This document shows, in pieces, positions 1 to 23,627 of a DNA stretch of 64,000 nucleotides. Under the pieces are notes generated by a model. It did no database searches. It worked only from the letters and a program-made list of their open reading frames with translations, and had not been told where the DNA came from. The stretch's first letter is position 1. Each line of letters opens with the position of its first letter. Where the stretch lies: positions 18,368,005 through 18,432,004 of the forward strand of contig CM119268.1 of NCBI GenBank assembly GCA_051294375.1, written 5' to 3'. Origin of the DNA: Paraspadella gotoi (Eukaryota; Animalia; Chaetognatha). A program made the position numbers and the translations under genes.

Positions 1-259
1 TTGAGCTTTAAGTAATTTTTGCATATATACTCAATCTCCTCATTGGTTGGTGTGGTCTGGTATTCGATGATCTCCGTTGCCAAATTTAGTAACTGAAGTT
101 TTCTTTCAATTTTTTGATAGTACTTAGATACATGTAGTATGCTGCTCAAAGTATTAGCAAAGTATCCCATTATATTTTCATCATCTTGATCAAATCGACG
201 AATCCAATTTTTCTTATTTACTGCTGTCACAAGGCATAGAACTTGCTGGTCCACAAGTT
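1..259 (-). CDS. Exon of GAF-domain cyclic-nucleotide phosphodiesterase-like gene (end of last GAF plus linker helix); gene continues beyond window start
   Basis: Acceptor TACAG at 260. Manual translation gives LVDQQVLCLVTAVNKKNWIRRFDQDDENIMGYFANTLSSILHVSKYYQK, then after a 1-nt shift in an A-run IERKLQLLNLATEIIEYQTTPTNEE. This matches the NK..F...DE GAF motif and the following 'A.E.+.Y....EE' helix of GAF-PDEs (PDE2/5/10/11 type). Confidence 0.7.
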
Positions 260-713
260 CTGTATTATTTTTGAAAATATTTTGAAAAATTTAAGCTTAA
301 ATCATGGTGGTCTTTTAAGTTATATTACCGTCTTCTGTGTAGCTTCTATGGATATGAATAGGCTCAAAATCATTTTCAAGAAAAAAATCAGTGGTTGAAT
401 AAACGAATCTAAAAAAATGGCGAGTAATAGTTATAGAATAATTTACTTAAATTTAAATTGTTCAAAAAATATTTAGTTTTTTAGTTGGGTTTGTTTATCG
501 CAGATCCCCAACTCTAGAATTGGTTCTCTTTTCCAAAAGCACCCCATTTCTGTTCCATAATCCCTAAACTTAAATTTAACCCTAATATTTTACCCTAATC
601 TGTTACCAAAACTATAACCCAATCCCTACCCTAATTCTAACCATAATCCTTAACTTAATCCTTGACCCTAACCATTAACCATTAACCTTAAATTTTCTTT
701 TGTATTTCTATCA

Positions 714-3700
714 CAGCCGGCATGACGGAAGCAAACGACGAAACAATGGTAAAGACCATCAGTGGCGTCATAAAACCTGCACTACCTCGACCTAAGTGAC
801 AACCTACGCAGAGTAGTGGAAGGAAAAAAAGGCTTTCACAGGAAAGGGATCAGCAAAATCCTGCGCCTCATCAACGGAAACAGGAAAATGTCACAATCCA
901 GATGAGCGAGGAGATGAAACATCTCAGTCACCATGGCCCAACTCATGAATGCCATCAACACTATGAGCAGAGACGTCGTCCGTGCTCGATCCGGCATCGC
1001 CGAAATCAAAACCATGCTGCAGGAAGGAGCCAATGCCAGAAGGCAAACAGGAGTACGCTGGGGCTGCTGGAGAATGGAACGCGATCCAAGTAGGGAGACA
1101 ATACGAGACTTGATTCGAGACTCAGTCAGGAGCGCCGCGGCGACAATCATAGAGCCAACAACAACAAGCCAAATGGGCACCGTTAAAATCGAGGGACGTT
1201 GTGATGACAAAAAACCAAGGGATTTCTTATGAGGCATTTACCAATCCCTCTGCAGATGCGACACAGACATTCGCACTATTGACGAGCAGCTGAAGGCCCT
1301 GTTTACCAGGGATTACAAGGTCAGTTGCTTCATCGATCCCATCGACGGCAGGCTCAACAAGGGCCTATGCGACGTTTTCGAAACCACCTCGATTAGCGCC
1401 TCGGAGATCGTGGACAAAAATGGAGATAAAAGTAGACCCAGAAATACACTCCGAGTATGGACTCGCACTAGTAAACGCCGTATATAGAAAATTCGACATT
1501 GTTGCCCCAGAAGACCAAGGCGCAGTGCCACACCACACAGCCCACCTGCTGAAAAAAGCATTAAGCCCGGGAGGTCATGGAATTCAGGGAATTCATCAAG
1601 ACCGGCAGGAGAAAGGAACTGGGAAGGAGGATCGAGTGGATCCTCCTTGGCTGGCTGGAGACACACGGACAACAGGCGACAGGTCGACGATTCATCAACT
1701 ATGTCAAGGACAACGATCGTCAAGTCTTCACAGACTCTACTACAAAAAGGCCTCACAGATAAAAATCCGGCCGAATCCAGCAAATGGCGACGGAGTCCGC
1801 GCCAGTAAAGGAAACAGAATTTCTGAAAAATTGTGCAAAAGCCGCCATCGCATCGCCATCGCAAGGACGACATCAAAATATTTGGTTTCATCATATCACA
1901 GGACAAGCTCAAACCCCAAAAGGACAAACTAGAACAAGCGGAGGTAAAACTGAAAGAGATAAAAACGCAGAAGGATCTGTGTGCGCTCTTCACTAAACTA
2001 CTACCGCTGCTTCACCCACTATATCTAATACCTGGCACAGCCGCTGCATGCCCTTACGCTGGTCAACAAAAGCGCGGCGTTGGAGACCCTGGAAACAGCA
2101 ATAAAGAACACGCCAGGCCTAAATTTCCTAAACCATGAGAAAATAAAAAATGGAGAATACAAAATCTACACCGACATGAGGTCTCATAACAGCCACGGCA
2201 AACGGGATAGAATACCCACTGTGCTTCCATTCGAAATCCTTTCCGGAGGAATACAGGATTAAGCATATTAACACCCTTGAAACCCTCGCCTTCAACATGA
2301 TGACAAGAAAATTCAAGGGCTACACCTGTGGAAGGCGAGTCACATTAGGCACGGACTCCCAGTACTTCAAAAGAGTAATGGACCTACAACATGAGCGACA
2401 AAAGCTACTACCGACAAACTAACTGAGATGGATTACAGAAATTAAGCAAGAAGTGCCACCCAGCAGAGGTCATACTAGTTAGACAACCAAGCCGACTTCC
2501 TCACCAGATTCACCGACCAGGGACAAATCACCCCGTTGACGGAAGATATGACCCAGGCTTTTGCAAAGACCCAATCAGTGGAGAAGCCTGGCCTGGGTAC
2601 CTTGAGCTACGAGTCAGAGGAGCACCAACATTAAGCATTACGGCTGATGTGCTCGACGTCGATGAAAAGGCTTTAGAAAAATTTTTTTCAAATACATCAG
2701 ATCAAGATTTGAAAAGAGTAAAGAGAACATACATAAACTCTACGGAACGCAAAAACAAAAGACGTCGACACTTTTGTCAGAACAATCTCGGCGAAAGACT
2801 GGACTATGGGCCACCCTGAGCTGGAAATGCTGGCCGACATGACGGGTCTCTGCATCAAAATACTCGATGAAAACTCCACAACGTCAACAGGGTGCAAATT
2901 CAAAAAGGTATACGGAAAAAGAAACCAGCCCAAACTGGGACAAGCATCGCTAATTAGCGAAACACCAGCGCTGATAAGAGTAACAAGGATGGCAACCGCA
3001 GAGGAAAAAGACAAAATAAAAGCCATAATGAACAAAATGATTCAAGATGGAATTACCCAGCCACATTTCAAGCCAGACGCAAAACAACTGCTTGGGGACC
3101 ACTTAGCACCGCCCGCACAACGGCGGAGAGCAAGAGACTTACCCTCACCCCAGCTTCACCAGCAAGGAGCATAGACGACACCAGGACAGTTCAACCACCG
3201 AGAGCCCGGAACCAAAACCCGGGCGCCGGTCCAATCAGGACCGCACTCACCTCAAATAGACGCAGAAGCGCCATCGACGAAGAAATAAGGAACAGAGTGG
3301 AAGTGACGCCAGATTCCGCCACGGGAGCATCCATCAATGTCGACGCGATCAATCTGGAGGAAGAGGAAGCCTTCCCACACCAACAAAATTAGCAGCTACT
3401 CCTGCTAAAAGAAAATATAAAGAAATGGCAAAACGAAGATGAGGATATTAAATCTGCAAAAACGATTTATGAAAATCACGGGTGCGAAGGACTTCGTAGG
3501 CATCTAGCAGCGACGCAGAGAAAGGCACTCACTCCAACGCAAGTCTTATTCATGAAGAATACTGATGAACTTCACATCACTAATGATGGAATCCTCCGCA
3601 TCATTGGATACAAAGACAATACCCGAATTATAAGGTACATTGTTCCAGAAAAAAACCTGGAATAAGTGGTCAAAAAGATCAATGATCAAAGATTAATGAA

Positions 3701-4900
3701 ATGGATTCCACGCCAACCATTGCGATCACGCCATGGGAATCCCTATGCATAGATGTCATGCATCTCCCACCCAGCGGAGGCATCAGTCACGTCATAGTGA
3801 CATCTGACAACGCCTCAGCCTACACCTGGGTGCTGCCAAACAGGCGAGCAGACGCACCGTACATTATTACCAGATGTACTATATGAGCTGTGTATCACCC
3901 AAGCCTAGGAGGCGCGCGCGGCCGCCATGAGAGTACACAGATCCCTGGCAGCCATAATGTTCAGAGGGGAACTCATCGTCACGGCAGACTGTAAGAAGAT
4001 GCTCGCGCTGAGAAGACAAACGGAAGACTGCTGGCAAGACTTGCCAATCAGCTACAGAGGATGAGTGGCTTTTTTTCCATCATGTGATTTTCCAACACAT
4101 GATAACCTCGTTATACAAAACTCCGTCCGATCCACCACCAATCTACGAGATCTACAAGGGTTTCCACAATGCCATCGAGCGCCCTTTCAGGAAGTACGCG
4201 ACACTGTCAACCTCGCTACCAAATGAGAGATCATTTGACCTCCAAAGTAGATCTCTATAACAACGTCGCCCGCTTTATGGACATGCACGGACAGGATAGG
4301 CACAAAATTTCAACGAACGCATGGGAGATTACGGCCGGATCACCTGCCTCACTATTCAGCTCCATCTTTGGGGATTCCAACTTCACAAAATGGTGGACAA
4401 AATTCACGTGAATCGCCCCACTCGTGGCTTTAGCCGCATCTCTCCTCGCCATCTGCTTCTGCTAACTCACGATGCGGACGGCGATTCGAGAAGCAAAAGG
4501 AGCAATGAATGAGTTGGACGCTTTCATCGCAGGAACCAACTTGGCTCAGTAAGGCGGGATAAACCCGCCGCCTTCGCCAACTGCAGCGGTCAGCTGCATT
4601 CCCCTCCATTCTGCCTCTCTCCACTCTCGGCGGGAAAGCCAGCAAAAAGCCAGTGAAAAACCAGCAAGAAGCCGAGGAAACCACGAGGTCCATCTCACCA
4701 GGACCAAACAAAGACCTCACCAAAACTCTATGACCGCAAGAAAGGCCATGGGACAATTGGAGGGAAGAAGAGGATTTGGGAGGTTAACAAAAGGGCCAAT
4801 AGGAACAAGGCTCGAGACTTTGTTTGAGATTCATTCTAGTTTCTAGGCTCACAAAAGAAAGAGCAATTTTTACTTACCTTTTATCCTTGCTGACCATTGG
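714..4900 (+). pseudogene. Decayed, internally deleted Ty3/gypsy-like env-bearing element related to 5528-16254
   Basis: Frameshifted fragments are homologous to gag (GRRKELGRRIEWILLGWL), RT/RNase H (DIKIFGFIISQDKLKPQ, NTPGLNFL), the OTU-like insert (MGHPELEMLADM), integrase (PWESLCIDVMHLP) and env (EITAGSPASLF). PPT and LTR start are deleted; LTR remnant at about 4590-4900. Confidence 0.9.
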
Positions 4901-5527: not shown

Positions 5528-5983
5528 CATCGACGATTAACTGAACTGCCGTGATACTGCGAGGAGAGAGGAATCTTCGAAGTAACGAAACAAGAGTTTT
5601 TATTCTCAGAATAAAATGTGATCACAAAATAAAGGATGAAATTCTTTGCTCTTTCTTTTGTGAGCCAGAAGAACCAAGTGACAAGCAAATTCACATCAAG
5701 CTTCTACCTCTACTTTTAGTTTCCGCTCCCTGACCCACAAGAGTCCCTTCCTTGTTCCCCATTGGCCCCCGACCCTGTGATCCCCTTCTACTCTTCTGTG
5801 ATTGGTTCGTGGTCCAAGTGTGGTCATAGAGTTGAGGGTAAGGTCTTTGTTTGGGCTTCTGGTGAGGTTGGCTTTGCCGCCGGCTGCTCCGCTGTGTCTG
5901 CTGCTTCTGCTCCTGCGTATGGGTTGGGGAGGCGAGAGAGAGAGAACCAGCAGCGGCGACCGCTGTGTCAGTGAGCGTTGATG
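5528..5983 (-). repeat. 3' LTR (456 bp)
   Basis: Homologous to 15810-16254. Sense-strand ends are CATCAACG...CGTCGATG. Contains CCAAT motifs and AATAAA. Confidence 0.92.
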
Positions 5984-7928
5984 CGTCCCCCCTCAGTTCG
6001 GCGAAGTAGGGGGGTTTATCCCGTCCTAGTGGAGCCACGGCTACTCCTGCGATCATGGCGTCCAGATTGTCTATTGCAGCCTCGATCTCTCTATTTGCGC
6101 AGCGCACGCATAGCTTGCAGCAGCAGTAACCGCAGCAGCTGAGGCACAAAATGGCTACCATTGCTGCTGTGACCGCGGCGATGATAGGGGCGGTACGCGT
6201 GAGGCTGGTCCACCATTTTGTCAGCTTTGTTTCCCCTAGGATGTCTCTAAAGAGGGAGGCTGGTGATCCGGCGGTGATCTCTCCCATTCTCTGGTTGAAT
6301 TCATGAGCCTCGCCTGTGTATTTGATGTGTAGGTCCATGAATTTTCCGACGTCGTCATATAAGTCTATTTCGGTTGTTATTTGTTCGTCTTTGTTGGGGA
6401 TTGTCGTAGTTAGTGATTTGAAGTTTTTGAACGGGCGTCCCTTTGCATCTCGGTATTCGCCGTTTGTTTTGTAGATTGGCGGCGGGTCGCAGGGCGTTTG
6501 GTACGACGTGCCGATCACGTGATGGTAAATGGCGTGTCGGTACGCAGCTCTACCTCGGTAACTGATGGGCAGGTCTTGCCAGCAATCTTTTGTGTCTCTT
6601 GTAAGGGCGAGAGTTCTTTTACAGTTCGCCGTTACCAACATTTCGCCCCTGAGAATGGCGATTTTCCCTTGATCGACGAAGGTTGTTGCAGCGGGGGATT
6701 TGTGCGCGTGTACGGCGGCTATACGCGCTTCTTTGGCTCTTGAGACGCAGAGCTCATGTCGGAGGGCGTCCGTGAGGCGGTTTATGCGTTGTGCGTTTCT
6801 GCCCGCCAGTTTAGACGCTTGTTCGTGTAGCGCCTCCATGACCTGGCTGTCTCTCTTCAACGTTGTCGGGGCGAGCGCCGATATGAAGAAATGCGGCGAT
6901 GATGTGGCATGCGCCACAAAGTCGCATCCTCTGATGGTTTCACTCTCCCCGGATACCTTCAGCACGAAGGACACATTCGCTTTCCCGCCGCAGATTTCCT
7001 GGCAGCGTTTGAGTTGGGCGGCGCTGTGATTTGCGTAGATGGCCGCGCACTTTGTCCAGCAATTTCCGGCCATCTTTGCCTTCTCCGGATTACTGCACTC
7101 GATTGTTTGCCTGTTCTTGCATCCGCCCAGCGTCGTCATGATGTCCGCTTCGGCCACGGAGCGGATCATGCCATCTTTTGTCGTGAAGACCGTCCCTTCG
7201 AAAGCAATGACCGCTCTACATTTTGCGTCTTTCCACGCTAGGATGCCACCTGGGTAGACGCAGGTGCGGCTTTGCGTGTCGCATCTCCCAGTTTTCGATC
7301 TGATTTCATCCGCTACTCGGATCCGTCGCGTGAAGAGGGTGAGGTTTGACACTAGTTTCGCGTTTTCTGACTCGTACGTGTGGTCGTGGAAATTAAATTT
7401 CTCACCCGTACAGTAGCCATCGGCGTCGTTCGTGCCAATGTGGTGGGTTATTATGTTCGTTCCCAGCTTTCCTTCCATCTCGATGGGGACGAGTATTCCC
7501 GTTTTGTCGCTCACTCTGATGGGCAGGCTATTTAGGGAGACTTTCTTTCCGTCGTGTAGGTCCAGGCATATTTCTCGCGGTAGCGAGAAATGATCGACGA
7601 CGTCGATGTTTGGGTATGGAATGTTCCATCTTCCACACACCCGGCCAGTGGCGACTACGGTTAGGTCACAGCCCTTTGCCTCGTGTTGTTCGTCATCCGG
7701 GACAAAGATGAGCCGTGTTTGTCCGACCTCTTCCTGGATCTTTCCGTTTTGCTCACAAGATTCGATGCTGAGTGATGTTGCTGTGTGATCCTGTGTAGCG
7801 TTGCAGTCGAAAACGGTGACTCGTCTCCCAAGTGTTTGTTCCACTATTTCATCCTTCGTTATTTGGGTCGTTTCATTTGCCATCGCTATGACGTACGCGA
7901 CGAGCATCATATTTTTGATGTTTATCAT
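5691..7928 (-). CDS. env: Env: class III-like viral fusion glycoprotein (herpes gB/chuvirus-type), 745 aa
   Basis: N-terminal hydrophobic signal (MMLVAYVIAMA). Cys pattern VFDC...C...C..R.CG...C...G.C.G..F, and C-terminal G.+A.+.GE....C......DCW.DLP+...TPC. N-glycosylation sequons; TM segment IIAAVTAAMVAILCL followed by a Cys cluster. Third ORF after pol. Confidence 0.85.
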   Translation of the reverse strand: MINIKNMMLVAYVIAMANETTQITKDEIVEQTLGRRVTVFDCNATQDHTATSLSIESCEQNGKIQEEVGQTRLIFVPDDEQHEAKGCDLTVVATGRVCGRWNIPYPNIDVVDHFSLPREICLDLHDGKKVSLNSLPIRVSDKTGILVPIEMEGKLGTNIITHHIGTNDADGYCTGEKFNFHDHTYESENAKLVSNLTLFTRRIRVADEIRSKTGRCDTQSRTCVYPGGILAWKDAKCRAVIAFEGTVFTTKDGMIRSVAEADIMTTLGGCKNRQTIECSNPEKAKMAGNCWTKCAAIYANHSAAQLKRCQEICGGKANVSFVLKVSGESETIRGCDFVAHATSSPHFFISALAPTTLKRDSQVMEALHEQASKLAGRNAQRINRLTDALRHELCVSRAKEARIAAVHAHKSPAATTFVDQGKIAILRGEMLVTANCKRTLALTRDTKDCWQDLPISYRGRAAYRHAIYHHVIGTSYQTPCDPPPIYKTNGEYRDAKGRPFKNFKSLTTTIPNKDEQITTEIDLYDDVGKFMDLHIKYTGEAHEFNQRMGEITAGSPASLFRDILGETKLTKWWTSLTRTAPIIAAVTAAMVAILCLSCCGYCCCKLCVRCANREIEAAIDNLDAMIAGVAVAPLGRDKPPYFAELRGDASTLTDTAVAAAGSLSLASPTHTQEQKQQTQRSSRRQSQPHQKPKQRPYPQLYDHTWTTNQSQKSRRGSQGRGPMGNKEGTLVGQGAETKSRGRSLM
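5986..5994 (-). promoter_or_regulatory. Polypurine tract (PPT)
   Basis: Sense-strand GAGGGGGGA, then 2 nt (CG), then the 3' LTR. Confidence 0.85.
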
Positions 7929-8304
7929 TTCGCCTCTTGTTACGATACGCTAAGGAATGTTTATTTACAGTCGATGAAGTATGCTAAGTATGCTAAGTAT
8001 TTTAAAGTTCAGGGCGAGGGAGGAAAAAAGCTTGTCCCTTTTTTTTTTTTTTTTGAATGTTCGGTGCGAGAGTTTTCCCGTTTTCTCCTATTTTCGATTG
8101 TGGTGAGTGATAGTTTGGGCATCGGCCCGCGTTTCACTCCTTGTTCGTTCGTCGTCCTTATTTTCGTCGTCGTCGTTTCTCCTCGTGCAGGGGGATCTCT
8201 CTCTTTCGCGATTTTGTTCTTTGTTCCTCCTTGCTCCTCCTAGGTCTAATTCCTACATGTCTGCAGTTTTTTTGCTTCGTCCCGTTTTTCTTTCTCTATT
8301 ACCG

Positions 8305-11300
8305 TTAGGATTTAAAAACGGGTGAGTCGCCTCCTGCCGCTTTTAGCCTTCGTCTGTGATAGGTGATGCGTTTTCCTGCTATCTCGACGATAAAATGGTT
8401 TCCTTTTATTTCTAGGATCTCGTGTGGGCCTGTGTATATGGTTTTCATCTTATTTGCGGCTGGCGCGGCTCCTGTGCGGATTAAGTCGCGTCTCACGTAA
8501 ACTCGGTCTCCTACGGCCAGCTTTTTTGGGTCGCGGAAGCGGTTTACTCTTTTCGATGTTCTATTTCTGATTCTGCGTTGCTCAGCGATCTTGTGCTGCG
8601 CTTCTTCCTGTCTGTCGGCTCTTAGTTTTGCATAATCAGATAGATATTCATAAGTTTCCTCGTCCGGAGCCTCGATTAGCCTGGGTTTGTGTCCGAATTG
8701 TAGTTCATGCGGGCTCATGTCCGTTTTCCATCCCGTTATGGGCGTGGCGTTGAGGGTGAGCAGTATGTGAGGCAGTTTCTTTGACCACGCCGTTGCATCG
8801 TCGTCAATTGCCTTTCTCAGCGCTTGTCTGATTCGGCCGATGTCCCTCTCGGCTCTGTTGCTGTTTTTTCTTGAGATTAGGGTCCTTCGTCCGCTTGTGT
8901 CAAGGAGATCGAGGAAACTCCGCATTTCTTCACCGTTCAGAGATGTAGCGCCGTCAAAATTTATTTCGAGGTAGCTCCCATGTAGTAGAAAAATGTTTTT
9001 GTCGAGGGCCGTTATAATGTTTTGCGCATCTGCTCTGCGGATGGGCAACGCCCACGTGTAGGCGGTGGCGTTATCGGATGCGACAACTACGTGGCTGATT
9101 CCGCCGCTGGTTGGAAGATGCATGACATCTATGCATAACGATTCCCACGGCGTTAGGGCGATGGTCGGTGTCGGATCCGTTTCGTTTAGGTGCACCTCGT
9201 CTGTCGTTCTTCTGCAGAGGTCGCACGTGAGTACGATATCCGCGCAGGTGCGTACCATTTCCGGGGCTGCGACGTACTGCGATACGAGGTACGCCGTTCG
9301 GTCGCGACCTGGGTGGCCTAGTTTCTCGTGAATCTTTTTTACTACTTCCCCGAGGTTCTTCTTCGGCACAACGTATCGAGTCGTCCGCGTGTTGATTTTG
9401 TAGCCGATGACGCAAAGTATGTCGTCTCTAGTGATTTCTAATTCCTCCGCGTTTTTCATTAGAAAGATTTGCGTTGGCGTTAGCGCTTTTCTTTGCGTCG
9501 ACATCAGATGCGCCTTTAATCCCATGGCGCCGTGATTTTTGTAAATCGTTTTTATTGATTTGATATCTTCATCTTCGTTTTGCCACTTTTTTACTTCGTC
9601 TATTAAGGGGAGGAGTTGGCTGTCTCGCTGTGTTGGTTGGTTTTCTTCCTCCAACAGGTCGAGTGCGTCCACCTCAATGGACGCTTCGGTGGTTGAGTCT
9701 GGCGGTATCTCGATCGCTTCGTCGGCCTCCCATGCGCTTCGGCGTCTCTCGTCCGCTCGCGGGTGGCGCCTCCTTTCGGGTCCTGGGCTTTGGTTGCGTG
9801 CCGTGGGCGGGGCCGCCGTCCTGATGTCACCCGTTCCGTTTTCCTGCGGCGCTGGCGGGCTTGCCGTCTTCCATTTCGTTGGGGTCGAAGGAGGCGAGAT
9901 TGGTGGCGGCACTGAAGGTGGCGCCGTATGCATGGGGCTTCGTGGTGGCGTTCGAGTTTCGCCACTTGCGCCGGGTCGTTTTATTTGGGATGTCGGCGGC
10001 GCTGCCTCTCTAGTTTCGTCTTGAGGTTTCGTCGCTGGTGGCCCGGGTTTTTTTTGTGTTTCATTCGTTGTTGGGATCCTGTAGATGATTGTTGTGTTCG
10101 CTGGGAGATCTTCTTTCTTTCTCTGCCTTGGTGGTGGCGCGAGGCGTTCAGCGTATGGTATGTTTGAGTTCGGTCCCAACCATTTTTCCGTTATGGCATC
10201 ATTGATGATATCTTTTGTGATGACTTTAATTTCCTTCTTTTCTTTTTCAGTAGCATTCGCGACTCTGAGGTTTGCGGACTCGTCCGCTATCAAGGAAGCT
10301 TGGCCTGTTGTTGTCCTGAAGATCTTCAGTTCTCGTTGATCGTTTGTTCCGTACGTCTTTTCGAATTTGCATCCGGCCGGCGTAGTGACGTCTTCGTCTA
10401 AGATTCTGATGCGGATGTCGATCATGTCAGCGAGCATTTCCAGTTCCGGGTGTCCGAGCATCCAATCTTTTGCCGAGATGCATCTTATGAAAGTGTCAGC
10501 GTCTTTTGTTTTTGGTTCCCCGTAAAGCTTCTTTATGTTTTCTCTTTTCTTTTCGAATTCCTTCCTGACAAAATTGAAAAAGGTTGTTCGAAAAAGTTTT
10601 TCGTCTATTTTCAGGGTGGCGGCGACGACGCTAAGTGTCGGTGCTCCTCCGACTCTCAGTTCTAAGTGGCCCGGCCATGCGCCGCCGCTTATCGGGTCTT
10701 CGCTGTAACCGGGTTCGTACGTGCCTTCGATGTTGAAACCAGCGGGCATGAAGGGCGTGTCTAGCGGGGTTATCTGGCCCTGTTCGGTGAATCTCGTGAG
10801 AAAATCGGCCGGGTTATCTTCGCTCTTCACGAGTATCACTTCGTTCGGGTGACATTCTTGTCTTATTTCGGTTATCCATCGTAAGACGTTGGTTGGGAGT
10901 AGTTGTTGTCGGTCGTGTTGAAGGTCCATCACCCTTTTGAAGTATTGTGAGTCGGTGATTAATTTTACTCGTCTCCCGCAGATATAGCCTTTGAACTTTC
11001 TGATCATCATGTTAAAGGCTAATGTTTCGAGTATGTTTATGTGTTTGATCTTATATTCGTCGGGAAATGATTTTGAGTGGAAACTTAACGGATACTCTAC
11101 GCCATTTGCTGTCGCCGTTATAAGTCCTCCCATTGCGCTGGTGCTGGCGTCAGCGTATATGCGGTATTCCCCGTTCTTTATTTTTGCGTCGTTTAAAAAA
11201 TTTAGTCCCGGAGTGTTTTTGATTTCGCTGACTAGTGTTTCTAGGGCCTCTCGATGCTTTCCTTCGAACTTAAAGCTGCTTTTGTCGACCAGCGTGAGTG

Positions 11301-13854
11301 CGTGTAACGGTTGTGCGAGATAAGAAAACCTGTGAGTAAAGCATCTGTAGTAGTTTAGTGAGGCCAGGAGGGCGCGGAGATCCTTTTGCGTCTTGATCTG
11401 CTTCAGTTTGATCTCGGCTTGTTCCAGCTTTTCCCTCTGTGGTTTCAGCTTATCCTGCGAGATGCTAAAGCCGAGGATCTTGATGTCGTCCTTCCTTAGT
11501 AGGACGCTTTTTGTCCACTTTAAGACGACGTTTTCTCGTCTACATATTTCCAGGAATTCTCGCAGGCGCTCTGCCATCTCCTCGGGTGATCTCGCTGTTA
11601 GGATGAGGTCGTCGACGTAAATGAGGAAGCTCTTTACGTCTCTTCCGAGGTCCGCGAAAATCTCGTCCAGGATGGCCTGCAGCACGTTTACACTGTTTAC
11701 TCCGCCCATGGGGAGCTTATTCATGTGCCAGTTGTGTCCTGCGCCTGCGAAAGCGGTTACCGGTTTGCATTTGTCCGCCAGATTTACCTGGTGAAAACAC
11801 GCCAGGATGTCGACCGAACATTGTAGTTCGTGGGGTTTGTATTCCTCTAAGATTGAGGCGATTGTCTGTGGCTCTGTCGCAAAGGTTGAGATGTTATCAT
11901 TTACAGCTGATAAGTCGCAGATTAGCCTCCATTGTTTCGCGAATGTTTCATCGTCCATTTGGTCTTGGTCGTTGGCGATGTGATTGGGTTTCTTTATCAA
12001 AAAGGCATTCGAATAAGCTTCTCCAGATGTTCTGGAGACGACTCCAGCTTTCTCGTAGACTTCGAGATATCTTTTGAGGGCTGCCTTCTTCACTGGGCCT
12101 TGATTCACGAATCTTGGTTTTGGTAAGCCTTCTGTCGTGTAGCCAAGGTCGACTCTATAATTCAGGAATCCTTCCTTGCAGTCGTTTATTGATTCCCCAA
12201 AAACGTCTCTGAATTCCCAGACTGTTTCCCAAACTATGGGAGCTTTGTCAATGAGGGATGGGTCAATTTCCTTAAACGGGCGTAGAAATTCGTCCTTCCC
12301 TCGGTCGTCGTGCTTCTGACGTCTCCTTCTTCTCGCTTCTTCTACCGCTTCCAGTTCCGCTTCTGAAGGTGTGTGTTTAACAATCTTCGTTGGCGGTATG
12401 TTTTCTTTGCGTACTCGTCGTAATTTTGGTCTTTCCCCTGTTAAATCTGCCTGGATTGGTCTTGCAATACAGTCCGGATCCAGATTTAAATTCGTCTTGG
12501 CTTCTTCCGTGACGATTAGTTTTGCTTCTCCCCATTCGCCGGGTTCGCCTGGCAGTTCCACCCCTTGTTTTAGGTGCTCGCCTGATACTGTGCACGCCGT
12601 CTCGCCGTCGCGGGATTGTAGGATCCACTTTGCCTCCGCGAGCGACTTCCAGTAAACCCTGGCTGCTCTCACCACGAGGTTCCCCGTCTCGTTCCTTTCT
12701 GCGTAGAGCGGTACCTGTGTTTTCTCGTCAACACACTTTCTTGCAAGCCATCTTGCTGCTTTTAGAGCTGACTGTTTGTCCTTAAAGAGATGCGTAACCG
12801 GTTTTCCCGCCATGTGTGCTACTTGTAGACCTTTCTTTTCGGCTGGGGTGACGATCCACATCTCATTGGCTGGCCCTGGGTCGGTTGTGGCCGTTCCGAT
12901 TATCACGTCCCTGTCCTCTTCGTCTGGGGATATGAAGAAGGTCGTGTCCAGTATCCAATTTTGGAACATGACTCTGAGATTGATGCGGTCTCTGATGACG
13001 ACGTTTCCGTTTCCTGTCGATACCCGGAGTGGTGGGCCGGAGTAGATTTTGCTCGTCATTGACCATTCGTCTACAAACTTCTTCGGGATAGTGTTTATCG
13101 ATGCCCCTGTGTCGTAAAGGCAGCTCGCTGGGGCTCCTCCTACCACTGCTGGGATGTAGCTGTTGCTGTTGAAGTTGATTTTTCTTTTTGTGTCATCCCT
13201 AGGTGGCGGGTCATTTCGTGGGTGGGGCGGATGGGTTTGCAGCGGACTCGTTGGTAAAGGGGGGGGTTCCATTTCACCTTTTGTATCTTCCGGGGTTATT
13301 ATTTCTCGGATGAAGACCTCCGGTTCATGACAACTTATTTCCGCTTTCCTTATCGTTGCCTGGTGTAGGGATTCGCCTTTTGCATCACCGACGATGGAAT
13401 AGGTTGGGTTGTAGATTGCCTTCCTGCATCTTGTGCTTAGGGTGGCCACTCGTGGCCTTAGGCGATTCAGTCGTGACTTTCCTCTCGACTCTGGTGTCAG
13501 CGGCCTTTCTGCCGGTAGTGTGTCGGCGTCTCTACTTTCGGTTTCATCGTCACTTGTTGATAAACTTTCACCTTCGTCTTGCGAGGGTAATTTGTTTCCT
13601 TTCTTTTTGCATAACTTCTTGCATATTTTCAACCTTTTTACAAAAGCTTTCTTTTCATTTAGTGCCCAGTTTTTCCATGGCTGTAGGCTTTCCTTTACTA
13701 TTTCTAGTGCTAATCTTTTCTTTTCACTTTCCTCAAGTGGATTGAAAAGTCTGTGGAGGCGCACTGCGGCTGTTCTTCCAGTAAATTTTAGTGCTGCTTT
13801 CGCGCATTCTTTTAAATGCGTTTGATTTCGTCCCGATGGCATCTCTTTGGCCAT
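8305..13854 (-). CDS. pol: Pol polyprotein (PR-RT-RNase H-[OTU-like, Pro-rich]-integrase), 1849 aa
   Basis: PR: LYDTGAS. RT: WRLICDL, LPMG, IYVDD, ILGFSIS, NYYRCF. RNase H: YADAS, ILETLA, ITDSQ, NPADFLTR. IN: HEKLGH...CDLC, CIDV/FDGA/AER, GPY/F-like YTGPHEI. Domain order and motifs are gypsy-type. Confidence 0.95.
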   Translation of the reverse strand: MAKEMPSGRNQTHLKECAKAALKFTGRTAAVRLHRLFNPLEESEKKRLALEIVKESLQPWKNWALNEKKAFVKRLKICKKLCKKKGNKLPSQDEGESLSTSDDETESRDADTLPAERPLTPESRGKSRLNRLRPRVATLSTRCRKAIYNPTYSIVGDAKGESLHQATIRKAEISCHEPEVFIREIITPEDTKGEMEPPPLPTSPLQTHPPHPRNDPPPRDDTKRKINFNSNSYIPAVVGGAPASCLYDTGASINTIPKKFVDEWSMTSKIYSGPPLRVSTGNGNVVIRDRINLRVMFQNWILDTTFFISPDEEDRDVIIGTATTDPGPANEMWIVTPAEKKGLQVAHMAGKPVTHLFKDKQSALKAARWLARKCVDEKTQVPLYAERNETGNLVVRAARVYWKSLAEAKWILQSRDGETACTVSGEHLKQGVELPGEPGEWGEAKLIVTEEAKTNLNLDPDCIARPIQADLTGERPKLRRVRKENIPPTKIVKHTPSEAELEAVEEARRRRRQKHDDRGKDEFLRPFKEIDPSLIDKAPIVWETVWEFRDVFGESINDCKEGFLNYRVDLGYTTEGLPKPRFVNQGPVKKAALKRYLEVYEKAGVVSRTSGEAYSNAFLIKKPNHIANDQDQMDDETFAKQWRLICDLSAVNDNISTFATEPQTIASILEEYKPHELQCSVDILACFHQVNLADKCKPVTAFAGAGHNWHMNKLPMGGVNSVNVLQAILDEIFADLGRDVKSFLIYVDDLILTARSPEEMAERLREFLEICRRENVVLKWTKSVLLRKDDIKILGFSISQDKLKPQREKLEQAEIKLKQIKTQKDLRALLASLNYYRCFTHRFSYLAQPLHALTLVDKSSFKFEGKHREALETLVSEIKNTPGLNFLNDAKIKNGEYRIYADASTSAMGGLITATANGVEYPLSFHSKSFPDEYKIKHINILETLAFNMMIRKFKGYICGRRVKLITDSQYFKRVMDLQHDRQQLLPTNVLRWITEIRQECHPNEVILVKSEDNPADFLTRFTEQGQITPLDTPFMPAGFNIEGTYEPGYSEDPISGGAWPGHLELRVGGAPTLSVVAATLKIDEKLFRTTFFNFVRKEFEKKRENIKKLYGEPKTKDADTFIRCISAKDWMLGHPELEMLADMIDIRIRILDEDVTTPAGCKFEKTYGTNDQRELKIFRTTTGQASLIADESANLRVANATEKEKKEIKVITKDIINDAITEKWLGPNSNIPYAERLAPPPRQRKKEDLPANTTIIYRIPTTNETQKKPGPPATKPQDETREAAPPTSQIKRPGASGETRTPPRSPMHTAPPSVPPPISPPSTPTKWKTASPPAPQENGTGDIRTAAPPTARNQSPGPERRRHPRADERRRSAWEADEAIEIPPDSTTEASIEVDALDLLEEENQPTQRDSQLLPLIDEVKKWQNEDEDIKSIKTIYKNHGAMGLKAHLMSTQRKALTPTQIFLMKNAEELEITRDDILCVIGYKINTRTTRYVVPKKNLGEVVKKIHEKLGHPGRDRTAYLVSQYVAAPEMVRTCADIVLTCDLCRRTTDEVHLNETDPTPTIALTPWESLCIDVMHLPTSGGISHVVVASDNATAYTWALPIRRADAQNIITALDKNIFLLHGSYLEINFDGATSLNGEEMRSFLDLLDTSGRRTLISRKNSNRAERDIGRIRQALRKAIDDDATAWSKKLPHILLTLNATPITGWKTDMSPHELQFGHKPRLIEAPDEETYEYLSDYAKLRADRQEEAQHKIAEQRRIRNRTSKRVNRFRDPKKLAVGDRVYVRRDLIRTGAAPAANKMKTIYTGPHEILEIKGNHFIVEIAGKRITYHRRRLKAAGGDSPVFKS

Positions 13855-15574
13855 TTGTTTTATTTCATCTGCGGCGTGCTGCGCTAACTGCCGCTTTCAT
13901 CCTTTCCTGGGATGTACTCTGCCTATTTCTGTTTCTTCGATATATTTTCTCTTACTTTTCATGAAATTTAATTTCTTATCAGAGTAAACATTTTCAGCGT
14001 CTCAACAACAAGGAAATCTCTACGTCTGGAATCGAATTTGTTCCTCGGTCTTCCCCTGTAGGATCTGTCTCCCCAACGGCCTTCGTTCCTTTCTTCGCGG
14101 CGTTCCCGGCCGTCATTTCTGGCGCGGTAGTCGCGGTTTGGCTTTTCTCGCCATTTTTCGATCATCCTTCTTCTCGTCCTTCTTTTCCGTTCATCAGGGT
14201 GGCCATGTCCTTGGTGAGCTTTTCCAGTAATTCTCGTGAATTATTCGCTTCCTGTAGCATGGCCCCCTGGTAGAGGGCGCTGGCGCTTTCTGCTGGGTTC
14301 TTATCATTCAATCCTTTCTGCAGGAGGGAGTCGGTGAGGACTTGACGGTCATTATCCTTGACGGAGTTGATGAAACGTCTCCCCTTTGCTTGGTTTCCGT
14401 GGGTCACCAGCCATCCGCGGAGGATCCATTCGATTCGTTTCCCTAGGTCCCTTTTCCTTCCTTTTTCGATGTAGGAGCGGAAATCCATCGCTTCCTGTGC
14501 GATCCCTGGAGCGTAGGGTGTCAAGGCCTTCGTCAGCAGACGTGCGGTGTGCCTTGGGACTGCGCCTCGTTCTCATTCCTCCGGTGCGACGACGTCGAAC
14601 TGCGATATACCTCGTTACCAAGGCGAGGCCTGCTCCGCGTGTACTCCGGTTCGACTTACTTCGACGCGTCCGCCACCTCCGAGGCTGAGATTGATGTTGA
14701 CTCGAAGATGTCGCATAGTCCTTGTAGAGACTACCGCCTATCGGGTCAAGAAGCAGCTGACCTCGTAGTCTCTGGTGATAAGGCTTGGAGTTTTCATCCA
14801 CGTTGTGACGTCGACCCTGCATCTCGCAGGGACTGATAGATCCCTCGTAGGAAATCCTGGGGTTTTCTCGGCTCGTCGTTTCTCTATCTTATCGTGCTGA
14901 TTCTGGGCGTGGCTTCCGCGCGGCTGGGGCATATTCTCGACGGGGAGGGTCGCGGCTATCGTCGCGTATGGTTTCGCGGCTGTAGTCACGCCTCCGTCTA
15001 AATGTTCCGATGTCGCGGTCCGTCTCTCCACGGTCTCCGTCGTCCCGTCGGTCGTCGTCTCCGTCGTTCTCGCAACAAGTTCATTATTTCTGTTATGTTG
15101 CTGTTGTCTTGTTCACCGTGTCTTTTATGATTCCACGGTGTTATGCAACTGTCCGAACTTTTCAGATAATTTATGTTTTCCACCTTGTTGTCGTTACTAG
15201 CGGAGCATTTCTCTGAACCCATTGAGTGATCTCCGCCTTTTCCAGCTGCGACGTTTCGTAGGTTCGTTGAAGTCCAGTTGGTGAGTCGTCCTCCGTGAGG
15301 AGATTTCAACGCGGCCTCCGTGTCCTTGTCGTTTCCCTGCTGTTTTTGTCGTTTACCGTCATTTTGCTGAGTCCGGATGTGACGTCGTTGATGTCGTCGG
15401 CTGCGCGATTGCGCTTTGACTTCCGGAGCCATGATCGACATCCCAGTCGTGGATCGAGGTATGTCCTACCATCATGGATCTTTGCGGACGCGGTAACGGC
15501 TGGTCGGGCGTCGGGGCCGATGGATGCATGTTTTTCTCCGCCATTTCTTTCGTTTCGTTTTTCTTTCCTTTTTG
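13855..15574 (-). pseudogene. gag: gag region broken into overlapping short ORFs
   Basis: Pieces 15359-15601, 14998-15441, 14738-15031, 14352-14822, 14162-14524 and 13968-14165 chain by small frameshifts. They match the decayed copy (RDY.VSCF.DPI.G.L; LGKRIEWIL.GWL). No CCHC knuckle seen. Frameshifts may be assembly errors. Confidence 0.7.
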
Positions 15575-15791
15575 CGTGAGCTTATCGACGGCCTTCGTCA
15601 AGTTTGCCCAAGACGCAGATTTCTTATGACGTCAACTTGGCTGTTCTTCAGAGTTCTTGTTTGTTCGTTGCGCACTTTGTTCGCTTTCGAAAATAACCTT
15701 TTTCCTTGTGGTAGCGGGTCGTGGTTGGCGGCGTGGGGCGATTTCGATTTTCGACGAGTTTAAAATTGTCGATTTTCGAAGTTTCTTTCGC

Positions 15792-15809
15792 ATCTCGTGT
15801 GTGACACCA
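15792..15809 (-). promoter_or_regulatory. Primer-binding site
   Basis: TGGTGTCACACACGAGAT directly after the 5' LTR. The first 8 nt match the tRNA-Leu-type PBS TGGTGTCA; tRNA identity uncertain. Confidence 0.7.
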
Positions 15810-16254
15810 CATCGACGATAACTGAACTGCCGTGATACTAAGAGGAGAAGGAATCTTCGAATAACGAAACAAGAGTTTTATTTCTCAGAATAAAAATGTG
15901 ATCACAAAATAAAGGATGAAATTCTTTTGCTCTTTCTTTGTGAGCCAGAAGAACCAAGTGAAAACAAATTCACATCAAGCTCTATCTCTACTTTTAGTTC
16001 ACGCTCCTAACCCCACTAAGTCCCTGCCTTGTTCCCCATTGGCCCCCGCCCGTATGATCCCTTCTACTCTACTGTGATTGGTTCGTGGTCCAAGTGTGGT
16101 CATAGAGTTTAGGGTAGGTCTTTGTTTGGGCTTTTGGTGAGGTCGCTTGCCCGGCTGCCTCTGCTGCTTCTGCTGCTTCTGCTCCTGCGTATGGTTGGGG
16201 AGGCGAGAAAGAGGAAACAGCAGCCGGCGACCGCGTGGTCAGTGAGCGTTGATG
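15810..16254 (-). repeat. 5' LTR (445 bp)
   Basis: Direct repeat of 5528-5983 with scattered substitutions and 1-nt indels. Confidence 0.92.
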
Positions 16255-16745
16255 ATATCAAGCTTCGTCCACATTTTCCTACCCACACACAAAAGTTCAT
16301 CTCAATCTATCCATCAATTATGATTAATTAGATATTTATTGGTTAAAATAAGTAAAAAGATTTTAGTAAATTCGACTTATGTTTTTTCCATTTAAACTAA
16401 TTCCACTCACACGATTCCATCGAAACTTTATATCCAGCTTTAATCACACACTCCTACTCACAACAAAATTAATCCAATCCAACAGCCAANNNNNNNNNNN
16501 NNNNNNNNNNNNNNNNNNNNNNNNNNNNNNNNNNNNNNNNNNNNNNNNNNNNNNNNNNNNNNNNNNNNNNNNNNNNNNNNNNNNNNNNNTGAAGAGTGCG
16601 ATCTGCAACATCTTTTTTATGTTATCATTATCAACATTGCATAAATTGACTGCACGTTTAGGGGTTCTACAATATATTTTTATAGTTTATTGATCAAAAG
16701 CTGTATTTTTTCTATAATGAAAGAGATCGCATAGAACAAAGTTAC

Positions 16746-17815
16746 CTTTCCTGTGGTAACCTTTCATCTATCATAACAGGTTGGCACATGAAATTAAAAT
16801 GATCTATTTCAAAAGATTCTGGACTTAAATCGTCCTTAATGGCGTTGTTCCAATATAAATATTTGCATTAGACAAAATTTGCTCTTGTGTCAGTTGAATA
16901 TTCACTAATTTTCCTTCAAGGGCCGTTCTCCAAAAATAACCCTGTGAAGAGACAGTAATTATTGTTATATGTTAGTGATAGAACCGTTCAATTTAAGCAG
17001 TCCCTGAGCTTTGGATCAGGCTGTAACACCGTGTTACAGGCGGGTTAAGCGCCCCGTCCTTCTTAACTGCCAGGCGACCACCGGGCTAGAACCCTGGACC
17101 TTTGGGTTGGGGGGCGAATGACTTGCCTCCGGCACCAATGGCCACTGATGAACGGTTGGTGGATTTTAGTGCACCATACATCCCCCCCTTGCGTAGGGAA
17201 AAGTCTGTTGCGTCTCTTCAGTGAATTGTTGGTGGAAAGTTCGTCACCAAGTTGAGGCATGTTGCCTGATGTGTTGTGGGCGGAAAGTGCATCGCCAGGT
17301 GGAGGCATGTCACCTGAAAATGTTGTTGTTGCTGTTGTGTTCGGAAATCGGGCTCACCAATGAAGAAACAGTAATTATTGTTGTATGTTAGTGATAGAAC
17401 CGTTCAATAAAAGCAGTCCCTGAGCTTCGGATCAGGCTGTAACACCGTGTTACAGGCGGGTTAAGCGCCCCATCCCTCTTAACTGCCAGGCGACCACCAG
17501 GCTAGAACCCCGGACCTTTGGGTTGGGAGGCGAATGACTTGCCTCCGGCACCAATGACCGCTGATGAACGGTTGGTGGATTTTAGTCCACCATACCTGTT
17601 TATTTATTGGGCAGGTCAATAGTTTCACTTCCTCATTTTTTGTGAAGTAAACAAACATCTCGTTATCCCTAAAAATTCAGTCGAAAGCGTTAAATTATGC
17701 ATAATTTCCTGTATTATTTTCTGAACATTTTTGGTATTGATTTGAAGGTTAATAAACTGTTCTTATGCTGTTGGTATTTAAAGTTATAGCTGAACCTTCA
17801 ATTATTGAGGCTAGA
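16746..17815 (-). CDS. GAF-coding exon of the PDE-like gene, interrupted by the 16945-17594 element and frameshifted
   Basis: Removing the element and one TSD restores EVKLLTCPINKQGYFWRTALEGKLVNI, followed by FMCQPV. Donor AG|GTAAC at 16746. Confidence 0.6.
16997..17070 (-). ncRNA. Twister ribozyme-like motif (family A 3' LTR)
   Basis: Same fold. L4 TCCAAAGC mismatches the CGG pseudoknot partner at one position, and P2 has a substitution. Confidence 0.6.
17413..17486 (-). ncRNA. Twister ribozyme-like motif, P5-type permutation (family A 5' LTR)
   Basis: GCAGTT-AAG-AGG-GA-TGG-GGCGCT-TAA-CCC-GC-[CTGTAACAC/GTGTTACAG]-C-CTGA-TCCGAAGC-TCAG-G-GACTGC, i.e. P5, P2, catalytic GA, pseudoknot, P1, UAA cleavage site, P3, P4 and the L4 U-NNN-AAGC loop. 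P2 is one nt short. Confidence 0.75.
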
Positions 17816-18476: not shown

Positions 18477-19133
18477 GAGTCGTTTTTTTGTGCGCGCATT
18501 GTATTGCACACGATAAAAGCCATACTTGTTAATATTTTTCACTAGTCGTTTCTGAACATGACAGTGTTATGTCTTATCTTCAATTCACTTCATTTTAAGA
18601 TTTTAATCACTATCCTAGTTATACCTATTTAATATTTATTTTTAGTTCAGGTATATAAGTAAAACAAAATTTTACGAAGATTATAATGAATATGCTTAAA
18701 TTGTCGAATACTTTGTATTTCTTACCTTTTTGACGATTTTATTATGTATTAAGAAATCTTACATGATAAATTTAATTATCTGACAATATCGTTAATAATT
18801 TTTTTGATAAAAGTTAGTTTTATTAAAAATTAAACCATAATAGTAACTTATACAAATCTTACCTGCTTACTTTAATTTTTTTTAACCAAAACACCATGTA
18901 CACCTTACTATACTACATTATTATACTCAAATAAGTGCTTCCAAAAATATTTTTAACTTTTATATATTAGAATGAGATTCAACAGTAAGTATTCAAACAT
19001 TTTTCTTCCAAACCGCGCATCCGTCTGTCCGTCTGGCCACCCTTAGCAAAAAACTCCAATTCCTCGTGATTGGATGGTTGAACCCACACTCCCACAGATG
19101 ATACACATCACCCAACCAAAGAACATGAGAGAT

Positions 19134-19342
19134 TGCAAAGAAAGTAATTATTATTATGTGCTAGTGACAGAACCGTTCAATATAAGCAGCCCCTGAGCTT
19201 CGGATCAGGCTGTAACACCATCCCTCTTAACTGCTAAGCGACCACCGGGCCAGAACCCCAGACCTTTGGGTTGGGAGGCGAAAGACTTGCTTCCAGCACC
19301 AATGACCGCTGATGAACGGTTGGTGGATTTTAGTCCACCATA
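19134..19342 (-). mobile_element. Family A solo LTR with internal deletion removing the ribozyme cleavage site (duplicate at 20842-21048)
   Basis: TSD AGAT; lacks the GGCGCTTAACCCGCC segment. Confidence 0.85.
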
Positions 19343-21562: not shown

Positions 21563-22625
21563 GGTTCTAGTTGGTTGGCGACTTAGCCATGACGCCCTCG
21601 CCATTTGGCGATTTAGCTGTAAACTACATCTAGCGTTCTAGTTATGGCGATTTCGCTAACTAAACTCAGATTAGGGTTAGGGTTAGGGTTGAGTTGGTTA
21701 GGGTTAGGGTTGAGTAGGTAGTAGTTAGGGTTAGGGTTGAGTAGTTTAGGGTTAGGGTTGAGTAATTTAGGTTAGGTTGAGTTAAGTTAAGTTTATTTTA
21801 GGCTTATTATTAATGTCAATTTTAGGGATAGGGTAGGGAGGGTGTTGTTGATGACCAAGAGGCCCGCGTTAGGGTTAGGGTTGAGGCACGGAGATGTACG
21901 GGAGGCCTGGGCCCGGTTAGGGTTAGGGTTGGGAGAGAGGCCCGTGGGTTATATATCGAAGGCAATAAGGGTTAGGGTTGAGGTACGGAGATGTACGGGA
22001 GGCCTGGGCCCGGTTTAGGGTTAGGGTGGGAGAGAGGCCTGTGGGTTATATATCGAAGGCAATTAGGGTTAGGGTTGAGGTACGGAGATGTACGGGAGGC
22101 CGGGCCTGGTTTAGGGTTAGGGGAGAGGCATGGAGTTGAACGGGAGGCTTGGTTTAGGGTTAGGGTTGCGGGAGGGACCCATGGTTGATGCATCGAAGGC
22201 GGTTAGGGTTAGGGTTGAGGCACGGAGATGTACGGGAGGCTGGGCCTGGGTGAGGGTTAGGGGAGAGGCATGGAGTTGAACGGAGGCTTAGTTTAGGGTT
22301 AGGGTTGGGGGAGGGGGCCCGTGGTTGATGCATCGAAGGCGGTTAGGGTTAGGGTTGAGGCACGGAGATGTACAGGAGGCTGAGCCTGGGTTAGGGTTAG
22401 GGGAGAGGCACAGAGTTGAACGGAAGGCTTGGTTTAGGGTTAGGGTTGGGGGAGGGGCCCGTGGTTGATGCATCAAGGCGGTTAGGGTGTGCTCATCCCG
22501 TGTTAGCTGCGCTTTTCATTATATTCGCTACTTTTATCACTGGCGAGGTCGCCAGTGGGGGACTGGCGAACATCGCCAAAGCCCTGGCGATATCGCCATG
22601 GCGAAGTCGCCAACCAACTAGAACC
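21563..22625. mobile_element. MITE-like element with about 30-bp TIRs enclosing a TTAGGG-rich minisatellite
   Basis: ggttctagttggttggcgactt.gccatg / catggcgaagtcgccaaccaactagaacc; internal units of about 85-140 bp punctuated by GGGTTAGGGTTAGGG. Confidence 0.7.
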
Positions 22626-23531: not shown

Positions 23532-23627
23532 CTGGAAAAAAAATTGTGAATAGTACTAACTTCATAAATGATTGATCGAAACGTTCGAATTAACAAAAGC
23601 TAGGATGACAGGGTGGATAACAAATTT

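What the first reader, a model, noticed from the sequence alone, without database searches (positions are those of the whole stretch)
5691..7928. Gypsy-type element with an intact class III (gB/chuvirus-like) envelope
Seen: an intact 745-aa type I membrane glycoprotein ORF after a gypsy-type pol. Known: insect errantiviruses use baculovirus F-like env, while gB- or chuvirus-like envs are described mostly in BEL/Pao elements (e.g. nematode Tas, mosquito chuviral captures). Inference from the Cys spacing: an independent class III fusogen capture by a Metaviridae lineage, possibly infectious. The diverged copy at 3.9-4.6 kb shows the capture is old.
Basis: partly seen in the sequence, partly recalled or inferred. 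Interest (0 to 1): 0.8.

Follow-up and report, generated by a model that had tools for sequence, protein, structure and literature searches.

The report
Divergent gypsy element with gB-type envelope
This is a multi-copy jumping gene, likely of an animal, whose third gene encodes a predicted herpes-gB/chuvirus-type membrane-fusion protein, a pairing already catalogued in over two hundred gypsy elements, so it is a new and unusually divergent member of a known kind.

Summary
Window 5528-16254 (minus strand) is a 10.7-kb LTR element: a gag-like region, a 1863-codon pol (protease, RT, RNase H, integrase) and a 745-codon env. Env is of the class III fusogen family: Pfam Monjiviricetes_fusion scores above cut-off; 14 of 20 ectodomain cysteines align with chuvirus-type G; the predicted fold matches herpes gB and chu-like glycoproteins. 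Pol is gypsy-type (best solved matches Ty3; no BEL/Pao domains), though no tree with BEL/Pao references could be built. The novelty claim fails: Chary & Hayashi (eLife 2026, PMC13524379) list 221 of 1512 env-bearing gypsy elements with gB-type env, 114 found with chuvirus-like baits, and argue for ancient origin. 'Intact' needs qualifying: env through the transmembrane segment is open and under purifying selection across sibling subfamilies, but gag is broken in this assembly and the env tail frame is unsure. Infectivity is untested. What is left as new: a very divergent RT (21-29% to all hits), a likely inactive OTU-like domain between RNase H and integrase, a cysteine-rich helical insert in env, and CA...TG LTR ends. 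The scan noted a related gB-type element in another genome.

The parts
15810..16254 (-). 5' LTR; begins CATCA and ends CGATG (8-bp terminal inverted repeat with one mismatch), not TG...CA
   Evidence: Aligns with 5528-5983: 417 of 440 aligned positions identical plus 23 gap columns; ends printed
15802..15809 (-). likely primer-binding site (TGGTGTCA), complementary to the last 8 nt of tRNA-Leu
   Evidence: Abuts the 5' LTR; same 8 nt as the Leu tRNA ends listed in PMC13524379 supplement 1; only 8 of 12 nt match
13900..15650 (-). gag-like region, broken into short ORFs in this assembly; identity as gag inferred from position
   Evidence: Longest ORF 178 aa; conserved at protein level in the decayed copy (up to 71% over 58 aa); no capsid family hit; a 629-nt short-read contig over 15201-15817 differs by 2 substitutions and 12 gaps (record 24)
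8305..13896 (-). pol, 1863 codons: aspartic protease (DTG, aa 262), RT (YVDD, aa 760), RNase H, bridge insert, integrase with H2C2 zinc finger, DDE core and GPY/F-like motif
   Evidence: Pfam RVT_1 1e-16, RT_RNaseH 1e-10, Integrase_H2C2 1e-9, rve 7e-5; best solved matches Ty3 RT 5e-24 and Ty3 Gag-Pol integrase 3e-12; motifs located
10290..10620 (-). OTU-like domain between RNase H and integrase, likely catalytically inactive
   Evidence: Pfam OTU E 0.067, below cut-off, the only hit for the 200-aa stretch; ESM Atlas look-alikes at 0.91, OTU on about 20% of cluster members, 10 of 10 best family hits agree; 55% identical in the decayed copy; no Cys or His at the recalled catalytic positions (sequence)
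5691..7928 (-). env ORF, 745 codons as assembled; class III fusogen family
   Evidence: Pfam PF24664 43.1 bits (50.7 for aa 1-600), cut-off 27; Atlas 0.95; Foldseek gB E 2e-10 and chu-like G E 2e-22
6981..7127 (-). cysteine-rich helical insert in the env ectodomain (aa ~268-316, six Cys)
   Evidence: Gapped in the virus-type G rows, five of six Cys shared with P0056; two helices predicted at low confidence
6129..6194 (-). env transmembrane segment (aa ~579-600)
   Evidence: Kyte-Doolittle 19-residue mean up to 2.4
5986..5994 (-). polypurine tract, inside the env coding sequence
   Evidence: Purine run 2 nt before the 3' LTR
5528..5983 (-). 3' LTR, overlapping the env tail; AATAAA about 380 nt in
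730..4870 (+). decayed, internally deleted element of a sister family: gag, part of RT-RNase H, OTU-like insert, part of integrase, 3' half of env
   Evidence: 65-77% nucleotide identity in long blocks; stops and frameshifts

Best explanation
[quoted passage not shown] Shown: two LTRs, domain order PR-RT-RH-IN, an open env through its transmembrane segment, a multi-copy family with at least three sequence variants of env, and selection on env codons. Inferred from the families involved: Gag packages the RNA, a Leu tRNA primes reverse transcription at the PBS, the integrase inserts the DNA, and Env, probably made from a spliced or separate transcript, trimerises on the particle or producer cell and drives membrane fusion with two fusion loops (candidates near aa 99-105 and 178-183), letting the element move between cells of the host, as Drosophila errantiviruses do from soma to germ line. 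The cysteine-rich insert may bind a receptor and the OTU-like domain may bind ubiquitin without cleaving it; both are guesses. The breaks in gag are most likely consensus errors near a contig end.
For: Env family: PF24664 above cut-off; 24 relatives among 1.84 billion representatives, 16 of 24 hit PF24664 and none hit another family; one of them (P0053) is the glycoprotein beside a Mononegavirales-type L gene on viral contig L004; profile-profile probability 99.5%; 14 of 20 Cys align with virus-type G; Atlas best hits are Monjiviricetes, rhabdovirus G, gp64 and gB clusters; all 42 listed PDB Foldseek rows are herpes gB; top viral-library rows are xinmo/chu-like G; the first 6 VIA-align rows are class III proteins. 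Pol. Selection: 29 of 40 listed env variants fall on third codon positions (p 5e-7) and no indel appears over 699 nt in 4 of 4 runs. Precedent: PMC13524379.
Against: Fusion, particles and expression are untested. The fold model is moderate (pLDDT 66, pTM 0.38), was built from an alignment holding ten full PF24664-family rows, gives TM-scores of only 0.12-0.28 and a best Z of 6.8, under the tool's threshold of 8. RT-RNase H is only 21-29% identical to any hit and sits on the longest branch of a tree without BEL/Pao or Troyka references. LTR ends are not TG...CA and no target-site duplication is seen. No capsid domain was recognised. The two LTRs differ at 23 of 440 aligned positions, so this insertion may not be young.
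Confidence: 0.8

Rival explanations
1. The element belongs to a deep, unnamed LTR lineage outside the sampled errantivirus clades and took up its class III gene separately from a negative-strand RNA virus.
For: RT-RH 21-29% identical to all 31 hits; longest branch in the tree; CA...TG ends resembling a rare Troyka variant; OTU-like bridge insert not mentioned in PMC13524379 main text; env is closer to chu/xinmo-type G than to gB and has its own subfamily with a shared insert.
Against: GPY/F-like motif and Ty3 best hits point to gypsy; PMC13524379 reports long branches, several source lineages and 'extra domains' within its gB-type set; the search for pol relatives was word-limited and length-limited, so close kin may be missed.
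Confidence: 0.15
2. The family is no longer infectious: the env is a recently inherited passenger or this copy is a dead insertion, and the third-position bias only records past selection.
For: gag is broken as assembled; LTRs differ by about 5% substitutions; internally deleted variants appear in the contigs (table 5); selection measured between subfamilies 9-13% apart reflects their history, not today.
Against: pol (5.6 kb) and env (1.9 kb to the transmembrane segment) are free of stops; contigs identical to the window's env occur in 4 of 4 runs; indels against short-read contigs cluster in the gag, leader and LTR parts, as assembly errors would.
Confidence: 0.3
3. The ORF is a chuvirus-like endogenous viral element that merely lies next to gypsy sequence, or the carrier is a BEL/Pao element.
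For: Such viral fragments are often flanked by gypsy pieces without true capture (PMC10084718 passages); BEL/Pao could not be excluded by a tree.
Against: env lies between pol and the 3' LTR, contains the polypurine tract and overlaps the LTR; a sister family has the same linkage; no BEL/Pao marker family appears among pol's Pfam hits at E up to 1.
Confidence: 0.04

Closest known systems
Ty3/gypsy 'ancient errantiviruses' with HSV/gB-type ENV (Chary & Hayashi, eLife 2026, PMC13524379)
   Same: LTR-gag-pol-env-LTR layout, gypsy-type pol, signal peptide plus ectodomain plus transmembrane env of class III type, conserved cysteines, tRNA-Leu-like PBS, multiple copies.
   Different: OTU-like domain in the RNase H-integrase bridge (paper describes mini and pseudo-RNase H domains; five entries are only labelled 'Other'), six-Cys helical insert in env, CA...TG LTR ends, very divergent RT. 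Whether this family is among the 1512 listed could not be settled: the supplements hold no sequences.
Jingchuvirales/Xinmoviridae-type glycoprotein G (Pfam PF24664 Monjiviricetes_fusion)
   Same: 14 of 20 ectodomain cysteines, domain order and predicted fold.
   Different: Only 15-20% identity; extra cysteine-rich insert; long basic tail; encoded by an LTR element.
Anakin and other BEL/Pao elements with chuvirus-like env (Dezordi et al. 2020, PMC7642597; search listing only)
   Same: An LTR element carrying a chuvirus-like glycoprotein.
   Different: Pol here is gypsy-type, without BEL/Pao marker domains.
Troyka LTR retrotransposons (Kojima 2025, PMC12440569)
   Same: Non-canonical LTR ends; CATCA occurs as a 5' end in 1 of 603 Troyka LTRs.
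   Different: Troyka has CG...CG ends, 3-bp duplications, no GPF/Y motif and no env; this element has a GPY/F-like motif and env.
OTU domains of Ginger1 and Helitron transposons (Bao et al. 2010, PMC2836005)
   Same: An OTU-family domain carried in a mobile-element protein near a gypsy-like integrase.
   Different: There it follows the transposase of a DNA transposon; here it precedes integrase in an LTR pol and seems to lack catalytic residues.

Membership tests
Ty3/gypsy (Metaviridae) | Two LTRs with PBS and PPT | tested here: met
   PBS match only 8 nt
Ty3/gypsy (Metaviridae) | pol order PR-RT-RH-IN | tested here: met
Ty3/gypsy (Metaviridae) | RT and integrase closest to Ty3/gypsy; GPY/F module | tested here: met
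   Ty3 best among solved structures; YTGPH motif; SH3_Tf2-1 weak, E 0.034
Ty3/gypsy (Metaviridae) | Placement inside Metaviridae in an RT tree with reference outgroups | tested here: inconclusive
   Tree of 32 sequences lacked BEL/Pao, copia and Troyka; window pol on the longest branch
Ty3/gypsy (Metaviridae) | TG...CA ends and 4-6 bp target duplication (typical, not universal) | tested here: not met
   Ends CATCA...CGATG, flanks differ; the 5' end lies near an assembly gap in error-rich sequence, so the missing duplication is weak evidence
Ty3/gypsy (Metaviridae) | Gag with capsid fold | tested here: inconclusive
   No family hit on the ORF pieces
HSV/gB-type errantivirus (operational group of PMC13524379) | env ORF of class III type inside the LTRs | tested here: met
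HSV/gB-type errantivirus (operational group of PMC13524379) | All three ORFs uninterrupted | tested here: inconclusive
   pol and env open; gag broken in this assembly, likely by consensus errors
HSV/gB-type errantivirus (operational group of PMC13524379) | Multiple near-identical genomic copies | tested here: inconclusive
   Several variants in short-read contigs of 4 runs; no genome held, depth is not copy number
HSV/gB-type errantivirus (operational group of PMC13524379) | Assignment to a cysteine-bridge class (C1-C3) and pol clade | not testable with these tools
   Defined in figures and a sequence archive that are not held
Class III viral fusogen | Sequence-family membership and conserved cysteines | tested here: met
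   PF24664 above cut-off; 14 of 20 Cys
Class III viral fusogen | gB/G/gp64-like fold | tested here: met
   Foldseek E to 2e-10 (gB) and 2e-22 (chu-like); low TM-scores, VIA Z 6.8
Class III viral fusogen | Trimer formation and membrane fusion | not tested
   No complex job or assay
BEL/Pao (Belpaoviridae) | Peptidase_A17, DUF1758/DUF1759, DUF5641 marker domains (list recalled) | tested here: not met
   None among pol hits at E up to 1
Troyka | CG...CG ends with 3-bp duplication; no GPF/Y; no env | tested here: not met
Active OTU deubiquitinase | Catalytic Cys and His (motifs recalled) | tested here: not met
   Match covers profile positions 35-103 of 128 only; no Cys or His at the expected places

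The most novel reading that the evidence does not exclude
The element marks a deep LTR lineage that no catalogue holds: an integrase that works on CA...TG ends, a pseudo-OTU domain built into pol, and a separately captured negative-strand-virus fusogen that gained its own cysteine-rich receptor-binding insert, still infectious in its host.
Probability: 0.15. Interest if true: 0.6.

Novelty: new member of a known kind. Interest (0 to 1): 0.28.

Why it matters
As a known kind it adds one very divergent data point to the question of how often gypsy elements gained class III fusogens, and how a gB-type protein fuses without the helper proteins herpesviruses need, which PMC13524379 names as open. 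The insert in env and the OTU-like domain in pol are concrete features to test. It does not overturn current views.

Tried and rejected
Word-index protein searches with env found nothing; the full HMMER search did. No solved structure matched env by sequence. A single-sequence fold was unusable (pLDDT 32). Scans of viral contigs with env and RT and of metagenome contigs with an env alignment and with P0056 gave no relative, so the context of the 29% relative P0056 is unknown. No genome is held, so copy number and host could not be read. No RNA holder was listed among sequencing runs; run X9 is only guessed to be RNA; neither is evidence on expression. The RT tree is uninformative on superfamily. 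Four peptide and two LTR motifs were absent from all 7 supplements of PMC13524379, which hold no sequences, and the window's 9-nt PBS string is absent from its PBS columns; many rows have no PBS, so this does not show the family is unlisted. An apparent empty-site joint in one run rests on 25 letters of a high-copy repeat and was not used. Two paper searches for OTU domains in gypsy pol gave the Ginger paper and papers where OTU means taxonomic unit (2 of 5 checked; one further listing not opened); Repbase was not searchable. ARAGORN found no tRNA in the window. No complex prediction was sent.

Full report
Observation. The ORF is real: ATG 7928 to stop 5691 on the minus strand, 745 aa. It has a short hydrophobic N-terminus (aa 7-17), 20 ectodomain cysteines, one transmembrane segment (aa ~579-600) followed by a cysteine cluster, and a basic tail. 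It follows a 1863-codon pol (8305-13896) after 380 nt. A likely tRNA-Leu primer site abuts the 5' LTR, and a polypurine tract lies inside env just before the 3' LTR. The element is 10.7 kb, about 50% GC in a 30-38% GC, microsatellite-rich background. The host is not identified; an animal is inferred from the repeats and a phosphodiesterase-like exon.

Env family. Pfam PF24664 (Monjiviricetes_fusion) scores 43.1 bits on the whole ORF and 50.7 on aa 1-600, cut-off 27, and is the only hit. HMMER over 1.84 billion representatives gave 24 relatives at E up to 0.001; 16 of 24 hit PF24664 at E up to 0.01 and none hit another family. The closest are unnamed metagenome proteins of 24-38% identity, among them the full-length cluster member P0056 (29% over 555 aa). 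More distant ones are full family members; P0053 is the glycoprotein next to a Mononegavirales-type L gene on contig L004. A profile of the close group matches a profile of the distant group at 99.5% probability. In a 10-row alignment, 14 of 20 ectodomain cysteines align with virus-type G; the other six sit in an insert (aa ~268-316) that those proteins lack and P0056 shares. The ESM Atlas ranks Monjiviricetes clusters first (0.95), then rhabdovirus G, gp64 and gB; one coronavirus spike cluster is at rank 28. An AlphaFold model from a 29-row alignment (pLDDT 66, pTM 0.38) gives herpes gB in all 42 listed PDB rows (best E 1.8e-10) and xinmo/chu-like glycoproteins on top of the viral library (E 2e-22). 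Against this: TM-scores are 0.12-0.28, the VIA-align best Z is 6.8 (HSV gB, rmsd 24.7, 296 aligned), under that tool's threshold of 8, though its first 6 rows are class III proteins; and the alignment held ten full family members, so the fold search is not wholly independent. Together the class III call is firm.

Pol. Domain order is protease, RT, RNase H, integrase. Ty3 is the best solved match for RT-RNase H (5e-24) and for integrase (3e-12); a GPY/F-like motif follows the core. No BEL/Pao marker family appears (marker list recalled). The 31 database hits are only 21-29% identical. A FastTree tree of 32 sequences and 423 columns puts the window's RT-RH on the longest branch, but has no BEL/Pao, copia or Troyka rows and so does not test superfamily. 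Between RNase H and integrase lies an OTU-like stretch: Pfam OTU E 0.067, below cut-off, Atlas look-alikes at 0.91 with OTU on about 20% of members, 55% identical in the sister copy. It lacks Cys and His at the recalled catalytic places, so it is likely a pseudo-enzyme.

Integrity and selection. Nine runs of one organism, from three studies, hold the stretch (the best may be the source sample). In the four laid, contigs identical to the window's env occur alongside variants about 9% and 13% different, with no indel over 699 nt. Of 127 variant rows the tool showed the 40 best supported; 29 of 40 fall on third codon positions (p 5e-7). For pol, 27 of 30 do; these 30 are the pol rows among 40 shown of 1376, the other 10 rows being LTR, env or gag. 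So env has been kept under purifying selection while the subfamilies diverged. The gag region has no ORF over 178 aa. A 629-nt contig across the leader and gag start differs from the window by 2 substitutions and 12 gaps, and the 5' LTR lacks 17 bases against the 3' LTR, close to an assembly gap; consensus error is the likely cause, but an open gag was not shown. Contigs also differ by single-base indels in the env tail, so its frame beyond about aa 640 is unsure. The plus-strand copy at about 730-4870 is a decayed, deleted sister family, 65-77% identical. It shows old linkage of pol and env but gives no date.

Mechanism. Most likely an enveloped LTR element: Gag packages RNA, RT is primed by a Leu tRNA, integrase inserts the copy, and Env fuses membranes so that particles pass between host cells. 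The layout, family and selection are shown; expression, trimer, fusion and infectivity are inferred from Drosophila errantiviruses and viral class III proteins.

What is known. Chary & Hayashi (PMC13524379; I read the abstract, results sections 5 part 1, 6, 7, 8, discussion part 1, methods section 14, the supplement list, part 1 and searches of supplement 1, parts 1-2 of supplement 4; figures not held) catalogue 1512 env-bearing Ty3/gypsy elements, 221 marked ENV_HSV, in cnidarians, ctenophores, tunicates, bryozoans, nematodes, flatworms, crustaceans and insects. They found 114 gypsy elements using chuvirus-like BEL/Pao baits, note extra domains in some gB-type envs, and favour ancient origin. 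Troyka (PMC12440569; abstract, results parts 1-2, passages) has odd LTR ends but no env and no GPF/Y. OTU domains are known in Ginger1 and Helitron transposons (PMC2836005, passages); two searches did not find them in gypsy pol, and the word is absent from the main text of PMC13524379, whose bridge table has five entries marked 'Other'. Its figures and sequence archive, which I could not see, bear on whether this family and its inserts are already covered. The scan's note e1-8573884, on another genome, reached the same paper; I had found it before.

Verdict. New member of a known kind, with three unusual side features worth a reference tree. Interest 0.28.

Noticed in passing
window 3-290 (minus): Likely host exon resembling the GAF domain of cGMP phosphodiesterases (PDE6C E 3e-5); the frame at 23278-23589 (minus) may be another exon but had no match, so both elements may lie in an intron.
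   Followed up: partly
window 10290-10620 (minus): OTU-like, probably inactive domain inside pol between RNase H and integrase; kept in the sister family.
   Followed up: yes
window 5528, 5983, 15810, 16254: LTR ends read CATCA...CGATG rather than TG...CA, with no target duplication.
   Followed up: partly
window 9153-10433: Contigs in 4 of 4 runs join across this 1279-nt stretch of pol, suggesting an internally deleted variant of the family (table 5).
   Followed up: no
window 16255-16489, 38526-38767 and others: A very high-copy repeat starts right at the outer end of the 5' LTR, next to an assembly gap at 16490-16589.
   Followed up: partly
window 16945-17605, 19109-19353, 25342-25576, 28324-28548, 40241-43897: A dispersed SINE-like repeat of about 200-250 nt in both orientations.
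   Followed up: no
window 21871-22474: Tandem 97- and 140-nt units that contain TTAGGG telomere-like motifs.
   Followed up: no
window 19047-19455 and 20750-21161: Identical stretches about 1706 nt apart, a possible recent duplication or assembly overlap.
   Followed up: no
P0056 (ENA contig of 5582 nt): A full-length 717-aa relative, 29% identical over 555 aa, sharing the cysteine-rich insert; its neighbours could not be fetched.
   Followed up: partly
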